Positions 468 to 63,024 of a stretch of 64,000 nucleotides of DNA are shown here, in pieces. Numbering within the stretch: position 1 is the first letter of the stretch; each line of letters opens with the position of its first letter. The DNA comes from an uncultured bacterium (GTDB lineage: Bacteria > Omnitrophota > Omnitrophia > Omnitrophales > Aquincolibacteriaceae). The position numbers and the translations under genes are program-made. Under the pieces are notes generated by a model. The model was not told the DNA's origin and did no database searches. It was given only the letters and a program-made list of their open reading frames with translations. The stretch lies in assembly GCA_964508905.1 (NCBI GenBank), contig CAZDVO010000001.1, positions 81,374-145,373 on the forward strand, given 5' to 3'.

Positions 468-1661
468 GTGAAGATTCTGATAGTCCACAATAAGTATCGG
501 TTCAGAGGAGGCGAAGATAGCGTTGTTGAAAACGAAATAGCAGCTCTGCGCTTAAACGGGCACGAAGTACGAACCTATTTGAGAACTAACGATGAAGCAA
601 AAGGATTGCTTGCCCGGCTCAAACTTCCGATTTCAGCGATATGGTCATTTCGCACTTATCAAGAGATCAACGCGACAATCCAAGATTTCAAGCCAGACGT
701 GATGCATGTGCACAATACATGGATGGCGATCTCGCCCTCATGTTATTGGGCAGCAAAAAAAAATGGCATTCCTGTCGTGCAGACATTGCATAACTACCGG
801 TTGTTTTGTCCGGCCGCGACCTTTTTTCGCGAAGGGCACGTTTGCGAAGAGTGCGGCGGCAAGTTCTTCCCGTGGCCCGGAGTATGGCATCGATGCTACC
901 GAGGGTCCTTTTTAAGCACGCTTTTAGTTGCCGTGACCATTACGGTCCACAGAGCGATTGCGACGTGGCGGAAAACCATAGATATTTACGTTGCGCTTAC
1001 AAACTTCTGCAAAACCAAAATGGCTGTTTACGGATTAAAGAAGAACGCAGTTTCCGTTAAACCAAATTTTATTGCTCTGGACCCCGGCAAACCGATCGAA
1101 AAGTCGGGAAAATACGCTGTTTTTGTTGGAAGGCTATCACAAGAAAAAGGGGTCAGGTGCTTGTTTGATGCGATGCGCTTATTAAAAGGGATCCCGATCA
1201 AGATAGTGGGAACTGGACCGTTAGCCTCGGAAGCTTGCGAAAAAGTTCGAGGTTTTGATAAAAACGATATAGAGCTCCTTGGAGAAAAAAACCACGCAGA
1301 GGCCATGGCTCTTATCCGGGGCAGCTGTTTTATGATAGTTCCTTCTGTTTGCTATGAATGTTTTCCTATGGTTATTGCGGAATCTTTTGCTTGCGGCAAA
1401 GCGGTCGTTGCCTCCAAGATAGGCTCTTTGGAGAATATCGTGGAAGACGGGAAAACGGGACGGTTGTTCGAACCAGGAAATGCCGAATCCCTGGCGGCAG
1501 CCATCAAGTGGATGTTCGAGAACCCTGAGGATTGTGCGGAGATGGGAAGATGCGCGCGCGATAAGTTTGAAAAAGAATATTCTTCCTCAAGGAATATGGA
1601 GATATTAAAAAGCATTTATGAGACTGCTATTGCACGAGAAGCAGACAGGAGGCGCCGTTGA
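468..1661 (+). CDS. glycosyltransferase, GT1/GT4 family
   Basis: 397 aa; GTG start after AAGGTGG; C-terminal half has the typical GT4 E-x7-E-like region (FPMVIAESFACGKAVVASKIGSLENIV). Confidence 0.7.
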   Translation: MKILIVHNKYRFRGGEDSVVENEIAALRLNGHEVRTYLRTNDEAKGLLARLKLPISAIWSFRTYQEINATIQDFKPDVMHVHNTWMAISPSCYWAAKKNGIPVVQTLHNYRLFCPAATFFREGHVCEECGGKFFPWPGVWHRCYRGSFLSTLLVAVTITVHRAIATWRKTIDIYVALTNFCKTKMAVYGLKKNAVSVKPNFIALDPGKPIEKSGKYAVFVGRLSQEKGVRCLFDAMRLLKGIPIKIVGTGPLASEACEKVRGFDKNDIELLGEKNHAEAMALIRGSCFMIVPSVCYECFPMVIAESFACGKAVVASKIGSLENIVEDGKTGRLFEPGNAESLAAAIKWMFENPEDCAEMGRCARDKFEKEYSSSRNMEILKSIYETAIAREADRRRR

Positions 1662-60393: not shown

Positions 60394-60483
60394 GGAGAGG
60401 TGGCAGAGTGGTCGAATGCGGCGGTCTCGAAAACCGTTATCCTCGCAAGGGGATCGGGGGTTCGAATCCCTCCCTCTCCGCCA
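60394..60483 (+). tRNA. tRNA-Ser (anticodon CGA), CCA encoded
   Basis: class II tRNA; acceptor and T arm identical to tRNA-Ser(TGA) at 14729; anticodon loop CTCGAAA; 3' CCA present in the DNA. Confidence 0.9.
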
Positions 60484-60686
60484 TTGATTCTATGGATCAA
60501 TGACGGTCAAAGCGGCGCATAAGGAAAGCCTCGTTCGGCAGACGCTGCGGAAGTTTATGTCATCAATGATTGTTGATCATAGGTGAACTGCGGCTTGCTT
60601 TAAGTACCGCTTGAAATCGGGTTCCTTTTCCCGCATCATAGGCGCACCTTCCGGAAGATTTTCCTGACAGGCAATCGAGAGAGACC

Positions 60687-62369
60687 ATGGATTATTTGAT
60701 CTTCGCTAGAAAATTCAGGCCGCAGACCTTCGATGAGATCGTGGGGCAGGAGACCATTACCACGACCTTGAAAAATGCGATCCGCCAGGAAAGAGTGCCG
60801 CAGAGTTTCCTCTTTTCGGGCCCCCGCGGCGTGGGGAAGACTTCGACGGCGCGTATTCTTGCCAAGGCGTTAAATTGCAAAGACGGACCCACCGAGACGC
60901 CGTGCGGAAAATGCGTTTCTTGCAAAGAGATCGAACAGGGAAGTTCTATGGATGTCCTCGAGATCGACGGCGCGTCGAACCGCGGCATCGAAGAGATCCG
61001 CGGCCTTCGCGAAACCGTGAAATTCAAGCCGTCCGCCGGTAATTTCAAGATCTACATCATTGACGAAGTCCATATGCTTACGACCGAAGCGTTCAACGCG
61101 CTCCTCAAGACGCTGGAAGAACCGCCCTCCCATGTGAAATTCATTTTTGCGACAACGGAGGCTTACAAGGTTCCGCTGACCATCCTTTCGCGTTGCCAGC
61201 GATTTCAGTTCAAGCGCATCTCGGTGGCGGAAGTGGCTGAAAAGCTTGGGAAGATCGCCCAGAAAGAAAAGCTCAAATACGAAAAGAACGCCTTGCTTAT
61301 GATCGCCAAAGCCACAGAAGGCGCTTTGCGCGATGCGGAAAGCCTTCTCGATCAGCTCGCGAGTTTTTCGGACGGGGAGATCAAAGAAGCGGATGTGCTC
61401 ACGCTGCTTGGACTTGCTTCCGAGACCCTCTACGTGGACGTGTTGAACGCGATCCGAGGCAAGAAGGGGGATGAGATCTTTGGTCTCGTCAAAAAACTTT
61501 ATGAAGAAGGCGCTGATCTCGGTCAGTTCGCCAAAGGGCTCTTTGAGGTGTTCCGGCATCTGTTGGTGTTAAAAACAGCACCCAAGGCGGATGCATTGAT
61601 CGACGCGAGCTCGGAAATGCTCAAAAAATTGCGCGGCCTCGCAGAAGATTTTTCAGCGGGAGAACTTCTTCTCGCGCTTTCCATACTTCAAAACCTGCAA
61701 GTCCAGCTTCGCCGCCCTGTAGCGACTCCCAAGCTTTTAGCGGAAGCCGCGCTTCTCAAACTCGTTTATCTGGACGGGCTCAAACCGGTGGAGACTTTGA
61801 TCCAAAGCGCTGCCTCCGGCGCGCGAGCGCTTCCTGTGGCTCCGGTGGCGGAAAAAAAAACAATAAAGCCGGTTTCGATCGAAATGCCGACTCTGTCCGG
61901 TGAAGATGTTCCGCGCGAGGTTCCGACCCCCGTGTCCCTAAATCCCGCGGCGGTTCATGTTTCGCGGGGCGAGAGCGTTCAAGAGGGTCTGACCTTGAAT
62001 GATGTGGAGCGGGTGTGGCCGCAGGTGATCGAATGCGTCAAGGCCAAGAGGATGTCGCTGAGCCTTTATCTTTCCGAGGCTGAGCCTGCCGAGTTGGACG
62101 GGATGGTGATCGTGCTGGGGCTTCCTTCCGAATTCCGCTTCCACAAGGAAATGCTCGAGAAAGAAACCAACAAGCAGTTCATCGAAGAGGCTTTTTCGCA
62201 AGCGCTGGGGCATAAGGTCCGGATCCAGTGTGTGGTGACCGAGCGCGAAGGGGCGATCCAGGAGGCGGCGCCGGGAACGGTTTCCGCTTCGAAAGATGAG
62301 GATGTCCCGGATATCGTTTCAAAGGCCCTCGAGATCTTCGATGGTTCCAAAGTGATCCGCAAAGACTGA
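60687..62369 (+). CDS. dnaX: DNA polymerase III subunits gamma/tau
   Basis: 560 aa; AAA+ Walker A GPRGVGKTS; zinc module CGKCVSCKE; SRC motif; internal A9 run at 61852-61860. Confidence 0.9.
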   Translation: MDYLIFARKFRPQTFDEIVGQETITTTLKNAIRQERVPQSFLFSGPRGVGKTSTARILAKALNCKDGPTETPCGKCVSCKEIEQGSSMDVLEIDGASNRGIEEIRGLRETVKFKPSAGNFKIYIIDEVHMLTTEAFNALLKTLEEPPSHVKFIFATTEAYKVPLTILSRCQRFQFKRISVAEVAEKLGKIAQKEKLKYEKNALLMIAKATEGALRDAESLLDQLASFSDGEIKEADVLTLLGLASETLYVDVLNAIRGKKGDEIFGLVKKLYEEGADLGQFAKGLFEVFRHLLVLKTAPKADALIDASSEMLKKLRGLAEDFSAGELLLALSILQNLQVQLRRPVATPKLLAEAALLKLVYLDGLKPVETLIQSAASGARALPVAPVAEKKTIKPVSIEMPTLSGEDVPREVPTPVSLNPAAVHVSRGESVQEGLTLNDVERVWPQVIECVKAKRMSLSLYLSEAEPAELDGMVIVLGLPSEFRFHKEMLEKETNKQFIEEAFSQALGHKVRIQCVVTEREGAIQEAAPGTVSASKDEDVPDIVSKALEIFDGSKVIRKD

Positions 62370-62424
62370 AAGCGCTAGCCCCGTTTTATTGAGAAGCAGG
62401 TAACGAACGCCGAATAAAGGAATC

Positions 62425-63024
62425 ATGAAAGCTTATTCCGAGATCATGACGCGATTGGTCGAGTCGCTTTCCCGTCTGCCCGGGATCGGCAAGCGTTCGG
62501 CGGAGCGGATCGTTTTTCATCTCCTTAAGACCCCCAAAGAAGAAGCGCTTCTGCTAGGCGAGCTTGTGAAACAGCTTCGTGAGCAGGTGGTGTTTTGCGG
62601 TGTCTGCCATAACTTCTCCGATCAGAAACTTTGCCACATTTGCTCCGATCCGGGGAGAGATGCTGGGTTGATCTGCGTTGTGGAAGACCCGAAAGATGTT
62701 GCGGCCATCGAAAAGACAGGCGGGCATCCCGGCGTTTACCATGTTCTTCTGGGCGCCCTTTCGCCGTTGGATGGGATCGGGCCGGACCAGATCTGTATCG
62801 CGGATCTTCTCGAGCGTGTGAAACAGAAAAAAGTTCGTGAAGTGATCCTCGCGACCAATCCCAACACGGAAGGGGACACCACGGCGCTTTATCTCGCCAA
62901 GGTTCTCGCGCCTCTGAAGGTTAAGGTGACGCGGCTCGCGCGCGGGATCCCCGTAGGCAGTCATATTGAATATACCGATCAGGCGACACTTTCCCGGGCG
63001 CTTACGGGACGGCATCTCGTATGA
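62425..63024 (+). CDS. recR: recombination protein RecR
   Basis: 199 aa; HhH LPGIGKRSAERI; C4 zinc finger CGVCHNFSDQKLCHIC; Toprim. Confidence 0.9.
   Translation: MKAYSEIMTRLVESLSRLPGIGKRSAERIVFHLLKTPKEEALLLGELVKQLREQVVFCGVCHNFSDQKLCHICSDPGRDAGLICVVEDPKDVAAIEKTGGHPGVYHVLLGALSPLDGIGPDQICIADLLERVKQKKVREVILATNPNTEGDTTALYLAKVLAPLKVKVTRLARGIPVGSHIEYTDQATLSRALTGRHLV

What the first reader, a model, noticed from the sequence alone, without database searches (positions are those of the whole stretch)
61852..61860. A9 homopolymer inside dnaX at codon about 390: candidate slippage site for making the short gamma subunit
dnaX contains GCG-GAAAAAAAAA-CAATAAAG. One extra A (transcriptional slippage or a -1 ribosomal shift) gives ...NNKAGFDRNADSVR-stop, 15 codons later. 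One fewer A gives KKQ-stop immediately (CAA TAA). Either way a truncated product of about 392-407 aa ends just after domain III, which is the position where gamma ends in E. coli (AAAAAAG frameshift) and Thermus thermophilus (A9 transcriptional slippage). No downstream stimulatory hairpin is obvious, which favours the Thermus-type transcriptional mechanism.
Basis: partly seen in the sequence, partly recalled or inferred. Interest (0 to 1): 0.5.

Follow-up and report, generated by a model that had tools for sequence, protein, structure and literature searches.

The report
Slippery A9 tract in dnaX
A run of nine A's in the clamp-loader gene dnaX of an uncultured Omnitrophota bacterium is conserved as DNA rather than as protein, so it is very probably a Thermus-type slippage site that yields a short (gamma) as well as a full-length (tau) protein: a well-supported but unsurprising new example of a known trick.

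Summary
An exact A9 run lies at 61852-61860 inside a 560-codon dnaX (60687-62369), 13-16 codons after domain III. A10 mRNA would give a 405-aa product and A8 mRNA a 392-aa product.

In 26 distinct Omnitrophota orthologues the run is the only conserved island in a hypervariable linker. Twenty-one of them keep exactly A9.
- The two Lys codons are the only conserved Lys columns in the gene that never use AAG.
- The following codon changes amino acid (T/S/N/I) but keeps its first A.
- Codon 393 uses rare NTA codons in 13 of 16 Leu/Val/Ile cases (background 7%), which makes a TAA in the +1 frame.
- The -1 frame is closed at a fixed distance by TAG, TGA or TAA.

A second Omnitrophota lineage keeps an exact A9 in a different codon phase. 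No Shine-Dalgarno-like element, no conserved hairpin and no Rfam dnaX frameshift element is present.

Best reading: programmed transcriptional slippage of the Thermus thermophilus type. A contribution from -1 ribosomal shifting on A_AAA_AAA is not excluded, and there is no RNA or protein evidence.

Similar A9-A12 runs recur in the dnaX linker of other phyla. This is a new member of a known kind, of modest interest.

The parts
60687..62369 (+). dnaX ORF (560 aa), encoding full-length tau in one uninterrupted frame
   Evidence: ORF list. Pfam DnaX domains. Residues 1-362 align with E. coli DnaX 1-359 at E = 1e-82. Homologues are named DNA polymerase III gamma/tau of Candidatus Omnitrophota.
61380..61805 (+). 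Coding region of DnaX domain III (residues 232-373), the last domain shared by gamma and tau
   Evidence: Pfam PF12169 match at residues 232-373. The run starts 13 codons after the end of the domain I-III alignment.
61852..61860 (+). A9 homopolymer: the proposed RNA polymerase slippage site. It also contains the in-phase heptamer A_AAA_AAA at 61853-61859.
   Evidence: Sequence. Exact A9 in 21 of 26 distinct close orthologues, and the only conserved island in the linker. Lys codons 390 and 391 are 100% AAA, unlike the other 36 conserved Lys columns. A second clade has an exact A9 in phase 0.
61864..61866 (+). TAA in the +1 frame. It would terminate translation of A8 or A11 transcripts after EKKQ or EKKKQ, giving gamma of 392 or 393 aa.
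   Evidence: In orthologues, codon 393 is NTA in 13 of 16 Leu/Val/Ile cases against a 7% background, which creates this TAA.
61901..61903 (+). TGA in the -1 frame. It would terminate translation of A10 transcripts, or of -1 shifted ribosomes, after EKKNNKAGFDRNADSVR, giving gamma of 405 aa.
   Evidence: In 12 of 23 orthologues the -1 frame stop lies exactly 8 codons after EKK and is TAG, TGA or TAA. In this window it lies 14 codons after.
61983..62282 (+). Coding region of the tau-specific C-terminal domain (DnaX_C, residues 433-532), which the short product would lack
   Evidence: Pfam PF20964 match at residues 433-532.

Best explanation
The A9 tract is a programmed transcriptional slippage site of the Thermus thermophilus dnaX type.

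Proposed mechanism (inferred):
1. While RNA polymerase transcribes the nine A's (T9 in the template), the rA:dT hybrid can realign. The mRNA population then carries A8, A9, A10, A11 and so on.
2. A9 and A12 transcripts are translated into full-length tau (560 or 561 aa).
3. A8 and A11 transcripts run into the TAA at 61864-61866, giving 392-393 aa.
4. A10 transcripts run into the TGA at 61901-61903, giving 405 aa.
5. All the short products contain domains I-III and lack the tau-specific C-terminal domain, so they are gamma-like clamp-loader subunits.

Shown here: the tract, its nucleotide-level conservation, its exact length, the selected stops in both non-zero frames, and the absence of ribosomal-frameshift stimulators.

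Inferred: that slippage actually occurs, how efficient it is, and that a gamma protein is made and used.
For: 1. Gene and position. The ORF is DnaX, and the run lies 13-16 codons after domain III.

2. Nucleotide-level conservation. The linker has a mean column identity of 41%, and the only invariant or nearly invariant block is G-A9-C. Of 26 distinct close orthologues, 21 have exactly A9. More distant members (P0066, P0070, P0071, at 60-66% identity) also have A9, and P0057 has A10.

3. Codon control on the same tree. Among 38 conserved Lys columns, only 390 and 391 are 100% AAA. Background usage in these genes is AAA 57% and GAA 60%. The fourth codon varies in amino acid (T, S, N, I) but keeps A as its first base.

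4. Phase independence. A second Omnitrophota lineage (L121, L122, L124, L126, L127, L129-L131) has an exact A9 in the linker in phase 0, with unrelated flanks. In most of these sequences both shifted frames stop within 2-7 codons. Other A8/A9 runs in the same genes have far more distant stops.

5. Both non-zero frames are closed by selection. Codon 393 is a rare NTA codon in 13 of 16 Leu/Val/Ile cases against a 7% background. Binomial p is about 4e-13 if the sequences are treated as independent. This makes a +1-frame TAA. The -1 frame stop sits exactly 8 codons downstream in 12 of 23 sequences and uses all three stop codons.

6. No ribosomal-frameshift stimulators. RNAalifold predicts 0 pairs both upstream and downstream. 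Downstream folds have z-scores from -1.24 to +0.59. GGAG occurs upstream in only 2 of 26 sequences. There is no Rfam hit at the site.

7. Genome context. A/T runs in the window drop sharply at length 9 (22 runs of 8, 2 of 9, none longer). This matches the published threshold for selection against slippage-prone runs (PMC1088944).

8. Precedent. T. thermophilus dnaX uses an A9 with nearby stops in both non-zero frames (PMC5009743; PMC1088944). A_AAA_AAA is much less shift-prone for ribosomes than A_AAA_AAG in E. coli.
Against: - There are no transcript or protein data for this organism, which is an uncultured Omnitrophota bacterium known from metagenomes.
- Five of 26 close orthologues have a broken or shortened run (L086, L087, L095, L104, L108). 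Other Omnitrophota lack it entirely (L001-L003, L015, L116, L118, L119, L132). The device is therefore dispensable.
- The run contains an in-phase A_AAA_AAA heptamer, so ribosomal -1 shifting could produce the 405-aa product without any RNA editing.
- A second A9 sits in an ordinary glycosyltransferase gene in the same window (755-763). A9 is therefore tolerated at least once with no evident function.
- In this particular window the -1 frame stop lies 14 codons away, which is not unusual for the gene (33% of positions have an equally near stop).
- The p-values treat related sequences as independent.
Confidence: 0.7

Rival explanations
1. Gamma is made by -1 programmed ribosomal frameshifting, or by ribosome sliding on poly(A), at the in-phase heptamer A_AAA_AAA (61853-61859). 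Transcripts are faithful. Shifted ribosomes read AAC AAT AAA and onward, and stop at the TGA at 61901.
For: The heptamer is in the correct phase for tandem -1 slippage of two tRNA-Lys, and every A9, whatever its phase, contains one such heptamer. The -1 frame stop is positionally conserved in orthologues. E. coli dnaX uses this class of mechanism.
Against: - No upstream SD-like element is conserved.
- No downstream structure is conserved or unusually stable.
- No match to the Rfam dnaX frameshift element was found.
- The heptamer is the weaker A_AAA_AAA rather than A_AAA_AAG (PMC5009743).
- Tandem slippage does not need the 9th A, yet it is kept while the amino acid changes.
- The +1-frame TAA is under clear selection, and a -1-only mechanism does not explain that.
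Confidence: 0.15
2. The run has no recoding role. EKK(T) is a conserved peptide motif in the tau linker, or the AAA codons are kept for some other reason such as local translation speed. Any slippage would be tolerated noise.
For: A8 runs are common in this genome, and another A9 occurs in a glycosyltransferase gene. Some orthologues have lost the perfect run and still carry an intact dnaX. Gamma is dispensable in several bacteria (PMC5009743; bioRxiv 10.1101/2022.11.10.516041).
Against: - A peptide motif does not explain 100% AAA at both Lys codons when the other conserved Lys columns mix AAA and AAG.
- It does not explain retention of the 9th A across T, S, N and I codons.
- It does not explain the exact A9 in another codon phase, encoding KKK, in a second lineage.
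- It does not explain the rare NTA codons that build a +1-frame TAA.
- It does not explain the restriction of A>=9 runs to the dnaX linker across phyla: 0 in 80.9 kb of domains I-III against 11 in 12.9 kb of linker.
Confidence: 0.07
3. The tract acts at the DNA level as a replication-slippage (phase-variation) switch that toggles cells between making tau and making only a truncated DnaX.
For: Homopolymers of this length are mutationally unstable. L104 shows an A8 with a compensating 1-nt insertion a few bases upstream, which is evidence of a past DNA-level indel.
Against: Tau is essential, so a tau-off state would be lethal. Every assembled orthologue keeps the tau frame open, and L104 does so only through a compensating change. 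No A8 or A10 allele that truncates the ORF was seen among the Omnitrophota loci examined.
Confidence: 0.03

Closest known systems
Thermus thermophilus dnaX programmed transcriptional slippage (Larsen et al. 2000 PNAS 97:1683, as summarised in PMC5009743 and PMC1088944)
   Same: - An exact A9 run in the sense strand.
- A single uninterrupted tau ORF.
[quoted passage not shown]
- A short product that lacks the tau-specific C-terminus.
- No apparent need for RNA structure.
   Different: The phylum differs (Omnitrophota against Deinococcota). [quoted passage not shown] The flanking sequence is unrelated, so the origin is probably independent. Nothing here has been shown experimentally.
Escherichia coli dnaX -1 programmed ribosomal frameshift (A_AAA_AAG, upstream SD-like element, downstream stem-loop; Rfam RF00382)
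   Same: The gene is the same. The outcome is the same: a gamma that ends after domain III and lacks the C-terminal domains. Both use an A-rich lysine-codon shift site, and an in-phase X_XXY_YYZ heptamer is present.
   Different: The heptamer is A_AAA_AAA, not A_AAA_AAG. There is no SD-like element, no conserved or stable hairpin and no Rfam hit. The -1 stop lies 14 codons away rather than 1. The +1 frame is also closed by selection.
Two-ORF dnaX genes with A10 (A7-A9 in three of them) in Chlorobi and others, where slippage is needed to make tau (Antonov et al. 2013, PMC3711429)
   Same: A poly-A tract sits at the gamma/tau boundary of dnaX and is predicted to act by transcriptional realignment. 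A Fibrobacterales locus of this form turned up in the survey here (L078).
   Different: Here the standard frame encodes tau and slippage gives the short product. In the two-ORF form the standard frame ends as gamma and slippage is needed for tau.
Caulobacter crescentus DnaX processing by ClpXP
   Same: Two DnaX forms come from one gene.
   Different: That mechanism is post-translational proteolysis with no nucleotide-level signal. It would not explain a conserved A9.

Membership tests
Thermus-type dnaX transcriptional slippage | Homopolymeric A run of about 9 in the sense strand of dnaX, downstream of domain III | tested here: met
   A9 at 61852-61860, 13 codons after the end of the domain I-III alignment.
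Thermus-type dnaX transcriptional slippage | Tau encoded by one uninterrupted ORF running through the tract | tested here: met
   A 560-aa ORF at 60687-62369 with DnaX_C downstream of the run.
Thermus-type dnaX transcriptional slippage | Stop codons close by in both non-zero frames | tested here: met
   The +1 frame TAA lies 1 codon after the run and the -1 frame TGA 14 codons after. Orthologues show selected NTA-A codons (13 of 16 against a 7% background) and a positionally conserved -1 stop.
Thermus-type dnaX transcriptional slippage | Tract conserved as nucleotides beyond what the protein requires | tested here: met
   21 of 26 orthologues have an exact A9. Codons 390 and 391 are the only 100% AAA Lys columns. 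A second clade has an exact A9 in another phase.
Thermus-type dnaX transcriptional slippage | mRNA population heterogeneous in the number of A's | not testable with these tools
   No transcript data are available for this uncultured organism.
Thermus-type dnaX transcriptional slippage | Two protein products (tau and gamma) detected | not testable with these tools
   Needs western blot or mass spectrometry.
E. coli-type dnaX -1 ribosomal frameshift (RF00382) | In-phase slippery heptamer A_AAA_AAG | tested here: inconclusive
   An in-phase heptamer exists, but it is A_AAA_AAA (61853-61859), which is reported to be much less shift-prone in E. coli (PMC5009743).
E. coli-type dnaX -1 ribosomal frameshift (RF00382) | Upstream Shine-Dalgarno-like stimulator | tested here: not met
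   GGAG occurs in 2 of 26 orthologues. Median anti-SD duplex energy is -2.9 kcal/mol, against -7.4 for AGGGAG. The window has only GGTGG (-6.2).
E. coli-type dnaX -1 ribosomal frameshift (RF00382) | Downstream stimulatory stem-loop | tested here: not met
   RNAalifold predicts 0 pairs. The window's downstream 55 nt fold with z = +0.39, and eight orthologues fold with z from -1.24 to +0.59. There is no Rfam match at E <= 1.
E. coli-type dnaX -1 ribosomal frameshift (RF00382) | -1 frame stop immediately after the shift site | tested here: not met
   14 codons in the window and mostly 8 in orthologues.
Two-ORF dnaX (slippage required for tau) | Zero frame terminates at or just after the poly-A tract, and tau needs a frame change | tested here: not met
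   The zero frame continues for 172 codons from the run to the tau stop.
Caulobacter-type proteolytic gamma | Gamma generated by ClpXP cleavage of tau | not testable with these tools
   There is no sequence signature to test. This mechanism is not excluded as an additional route.

The most novel reading that the evidence does not exclude
Poly-A transcriptional slippage, rather than E. coli-style ribosomal frameshifting, may be the commonest way bacteria make gamma. It would have arisen repeatedly and independently. Two Omnitrophota lineages carry an exact A9 in different codon phases. In a sample of about 70 diverse dnaX genes, A>=9 runs occur only after domain III: 0 in 80.9 kb of domains I-III, 11 in 12.9 kb of linker and 3 in 27 kb of C-terminal region. 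The lineages involved are Ignavibacteriota, Leptospira, Bacteroidota, Desulfobacterota, Planctomycetota and Fibrobacterota. If this holds, rare-codon choices that build stops in both shifted frames would give a purely computational signature for truncating slippage sites. Baranov et al. 2005 regarded such sites as hard to detect by comparative analysis.
Probability: 0.3. Interest if true: 0.5.

Novelty: new member of a known kind. Interest (0 to 1): 0.3.

Why it matters
It extends the Thermus-type route to the gamma clamp-loader subunit to an uncultured phylum, Omnitrophota, for which no dnaX recoding has been reported.

It adds comparative evidence that two DnaX forms are selected for, a point whose biological reason is still debated.

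In practice it tells annotators that this dnaX should carry a second, shorter product.

It also shows that truncating slippage sites can be recognised from synonymous-codon signatures, namely an all-AAA run and rare NTA codons that create an out-of-frame stop. It does not change how the mechanism is understood.

Tried and rejected
It returned only distant dnaX genes (53% identity or less), so it was useless for close orthologues. I reused it later as a cross-phylum survey.
- Close orthologues were recovered instead by a metagenome scan with a C-terminal-domain alignment and by four exact-protein look-ups.
- Rfam at E <= 1 found no dnaX frameshift element, only tRNAs and chance hits.
- RNAalifold on 23 sequences upstream and downstream of the run gave no pairs. 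Single-sequence folds were no better than shuffles. I therefore dropped the small GCCGG...CCGGU hairpin that starts 7 nt after the run in this window.
- The upstream GGTGG in the window was considered as an SD-like stimulator and rejected because it is not conserved.
- The primary Thermus paper (PMC26496) is not held, so its content is cited through reviews.
- I considered asking whether A8 or A10 versions of the protein exist in public assemblies. I did not run this, because a hit could not be told apart from homopolymer sequencing error.
- MAFFT misaligned L112. Run-anchored coordinates were used for the counts.

Full report
**1. The observation**

The window reads GCG GAA AAA AAA ACA ATA AAG around the finding. 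The nine A's occupy exactly 61852-61860, with a G before and a C after. They lie in the + strand ORF 60687-62369 (560 aa).

Pfam identifies the product as DnaX. It has the clamp-loader AAA+ module, the lid, gamma/tau domain III (residues 232-373) and the tau C-terminal domain DnaX_C (433-532). Residues 1-362 align with E. coli DnaX 1-359 at E = 1e-82. The best database homologues are DNA polymerase III gamma/tau proteins of Candidatus Omnitrophota MAGs.

The run covers E389, K390, K391 and the first base of T392. It starts 13 codons after the end of the domain I-III alignment.
- One extra A gives ...EKKNNKAGFDRNADSVR, then TGA at 61901-61903. The product is 405 aa.
- One fewer A gives ...EKKQ, then TAA at 61864-61866. 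The product is 392 aa.

**2. Is it more than chance?**

As a homopolymer alone it is only mildly unusual. The 52%-GC window contains 22 A/T runs of exactly 8. A8 matches number 26 against 13.5 expected.

The length distribution has a cliff, however. Successive length ratios are 0.34-0.55 from 3 to 8, then 0.09 at 8->9 (22 runs against 2), and nothing at 10 or more. Nine is the length at which Baranov et al. found selection against slippage-prone runs in many bacterial genomes (PMC1088944). The dnaX run is one of only two exceptions in 64 kb.

**3. Orthologues**

A protein search gave more than 70 homologues at 60-95% identity. In these, E-K-K-(T/S/N/I) is an island in an otherwise unalignable linker. 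Every alternative at the fourth position is a codon that starts with A.

DNA for orthologues came from a metagenome scan seeded with the clade-specific C-terminal domain and from exact-protein look-ups. Among 26 distinct close sequences:
- 21 have exactly A9 in the same place and phase.
- L086 has A8C.
- L104 has A8 with a compensating 1-nt insertion just upstream.
- L087 has AAAAAGAAA.
- L108 has AAAGAAAAA.
- L095 has GAG AAA AAA ACG, the only synonymous interruption.

In the MAFFT alignment the linker averages 41% column identity. The only invariant or nearly invariant block is G-A9-C. Deeper members (P0066, P0070, P0071) also have A9, and P0057 has A10.

**4. Nucleotide or amino-acid constraint?**

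Outside the run these dnaX genes use AAA for 57% of Lys codons and GAA for 60% of Glu codons. On the same alignment and the same tree, there are 38 columns where Lys is conserved. Only columns 390 and 391 are 100% AAA (23/23 and 22/22). The others mix AAA and AAG freely. For example, the KK at residues 259-260 is AAG AAG in this window but part of an A8 run in several relatives.

A second Omnitrophota lineage has a C-terminal domain only 42-48% identical to this one (L121, L122, L124, L126, L127, L129-L131). It too has an exact A9 in the linker, 27-39 codons after domain III. There the run is in phase 0 (AAA AAA AAA) and the flanks are unrelated.

Conservation of length irrespective of codon phase points to a signal read as nucleic acid.

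**5. The shifted frames**

In the +1 frame (A8 or A11 mRNA), 13 of the 27 dnaX sequences compared have a TAA one codon after the run. Only 6-11% of positions in the same genes have an equally near stop.

This TAA is built by codon 393 ending in TA followed by a codon that starts with A. Codon 393 varies among Leu, Val and Ile, yet it is CTA, GTA or ATA in 13 of 16 cases. Such NTA codons make up 7% of Leu/Val/Ile codons elsewhere in these genes. Binomial p is about 4e-13, overstated because the sequences are related. One of the three exceptions, L108, is also a lineage with a broken run.

In the -1 frame (A10 mRNA or -1 shifted ribosomes), the stop lies exactly 8 codons after EKK in 12 of 23 sequences. 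It is TAG, TGA or TAA in different lineages.

In most of the phase-0 sequences both shifted frames stop within 2-7 codons. Other A8/A9 runs in the same genes run on for 13-117 codons.

Selection on stops in both non-zero frames is the arrangement described for T. thermophilus dnaX (PMC5009743; PMC1088944). A purely -1 ribosomal mechanism does not predict it.

**6. Ribosomal-frameshift stimulators**

E. coli dnaX needs A_AAA_AAG, an upstream SD-like element and a downstream stem-loop. Here:
- The heptamer is A_AAA_AAA, which is reported as much less shift-prone.
- Rfam finds no dnaX frameshift element at E <= 1.
- RNAalifold finds no pairs in 23 sequences, either downstream or upstream.
- Downstream 55-nt folds of nine sequences are no more stable than shuffles, with z from -1.24 to +0.59. 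The 141-nt region of the window gives z = -0.19.
- GGAG occurs upstream in only 2 of 26 sequences.

**7. Mechanism**

The best-supported reading is programmed transcriptional slippage on the A9 (T9 template). It would give a mixed mRNA population: tau from A9 and A12 transcripts, and gamma-like products of 392-405 aa from the rest.

The short products keep domains I-III. That corresponds to the crystallised E. coli gamma core of 1-373. They lose DnaX_C.

I put this at about 0.7. A ribosomal -1 shift or sliding on the in-phase A_AAA_AAA remains possible, alone or alongside slippage (0.15). A non-recoding explanation is unlikely (0.07). DNA-level phase variation is very unlikely (0.03).

The device is not universal. 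Five close orthologues have degraded runs, and other Omnitrophota have none. This fits reports that gamma is dispensable in some bacteria.

**8. Comparison and novelty**

Thermus A9 slippage is established, and predicted A10 sites in two-ORF dnaX genes are already in the literature. No held paper mentions dnaX together with Omnitrophota.

The accidental cross-phylum sample shows that the theme is widespread. A>=9 runs are absent from 80.9 kb of domain I-III coding sequence. They occur 11 times in 12.9 kb of the 60-codon linker and 3 times in 27 kb of the C-terminal region. The lineages are Ignavibacteriota, Leptospira, Bacteroidota, Desulfobacterota, Planctomycetota and Fibrobacterota. One Fibrobacterales locus (L078) is of the two-ORF type.

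The finding is therefore a new, well-supported member of a known kind. Specialists would not be surprised. Interest is 0.3.

Noticed in passing
window 755-763 (ORF 468-1661, +): This is the only other A9 run in the window. It lies about 96 codons into a GT4-family glycosyltransferase (Pfam Glycos_transf_1 and Glyco_transf_4) and reads GCA AAA AAA AAT (A-K-K-N). An extra A would stop translation after 13 codons and a missing A after 53. Whether the run is conserved or used was not examined.
   Followed up: partly
whole window: The A/T homopolymer length distribution has a sharp cut-off: 49 runs of 7, 22 of 8, 2 of 9 and none longer. The step ratio is 0.09 at 8->9 against about 0.45 for shorter steps. 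This suggests genome-wide selection against runs of 9 or more in this organism.
   Followed up: partly
L001-L080 (diverse phyla), e.g. L007, L012, L018, L033, L038, L052, L059, L069, L075, L078: A9-A12 runs recur in the 60 codons after DnaX domain III in Ignavibacteriota, Leptospira biflexa, Bacteroidota, Desulfobacterota, Planctomycetota and Fibrobacterota. Domains I-III of the same genes have none: 11 runs in 12.9 kb against 0 in 80.9 kb. In L078 (Fibrobacterales) the zero frame ends 5 codons after an A10, and +1A opens 182 codons. That is the two-ORF form of Antonov et al. 2013.
   Followed up: partly
L045 and L063 (Trichlorobacter and Deltaproteobacteria MAGs): An A10 run lies 142-153 codons after domain III, only 41 codons before the tau stop. 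This position is closer to the 'seven-eighths' location described for Thermus than to the linker position seen in Omnitrophota.
   Followed up: no
L104:2329-2340 (metagenome contig Ga0114951_10000044): This orthologue has A8 instead of A9, together with a 1-nt insertion a few bases upstream (gttgg against gtgg). The tau frame is preserved and the peptide reads VGKKT. It looks like a compensated DNA-level indel at the tract.
   Followed up: no
L138:1468-1477 (P0057, Logan SRR30949865): This orthologue has an in-frame A10 (GAA AAA AAA AAT, giving EKKN). Its stops in both shifted frames are further away, at 13-17 codons counted from the Glu codon.
   Followed up: no
L121 codon 36 and L127/L128 codon 335: Some members of the second Omnitrophota lineage carry additional A9 runs inside the essential domains I-III of dnaX. 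Their shifted-frame stops are distant, at 13-117 codons counted from the start of the run. A9 is therefore not always avoided in those genomes.
   Followed up: no
window 62370-62424 and L139-L143: recR (62425-63024) follows dnaX directly after a 55-nt spacer. No ybaB/ebfC gene lies between them, unlike the common dnaX-ybaB-recR arrangement (that arrangement is from my own knowledge). The same adjacency is seen in relatives.
   Followed up: no
window 60394-60483 and 60484-60686: tRNA-Ser(CGA) lies about 200 nt upstream of dnaX. The spacer between them gave no significant Rfam match, and in particular no SRP RNA.
   Followed up: no
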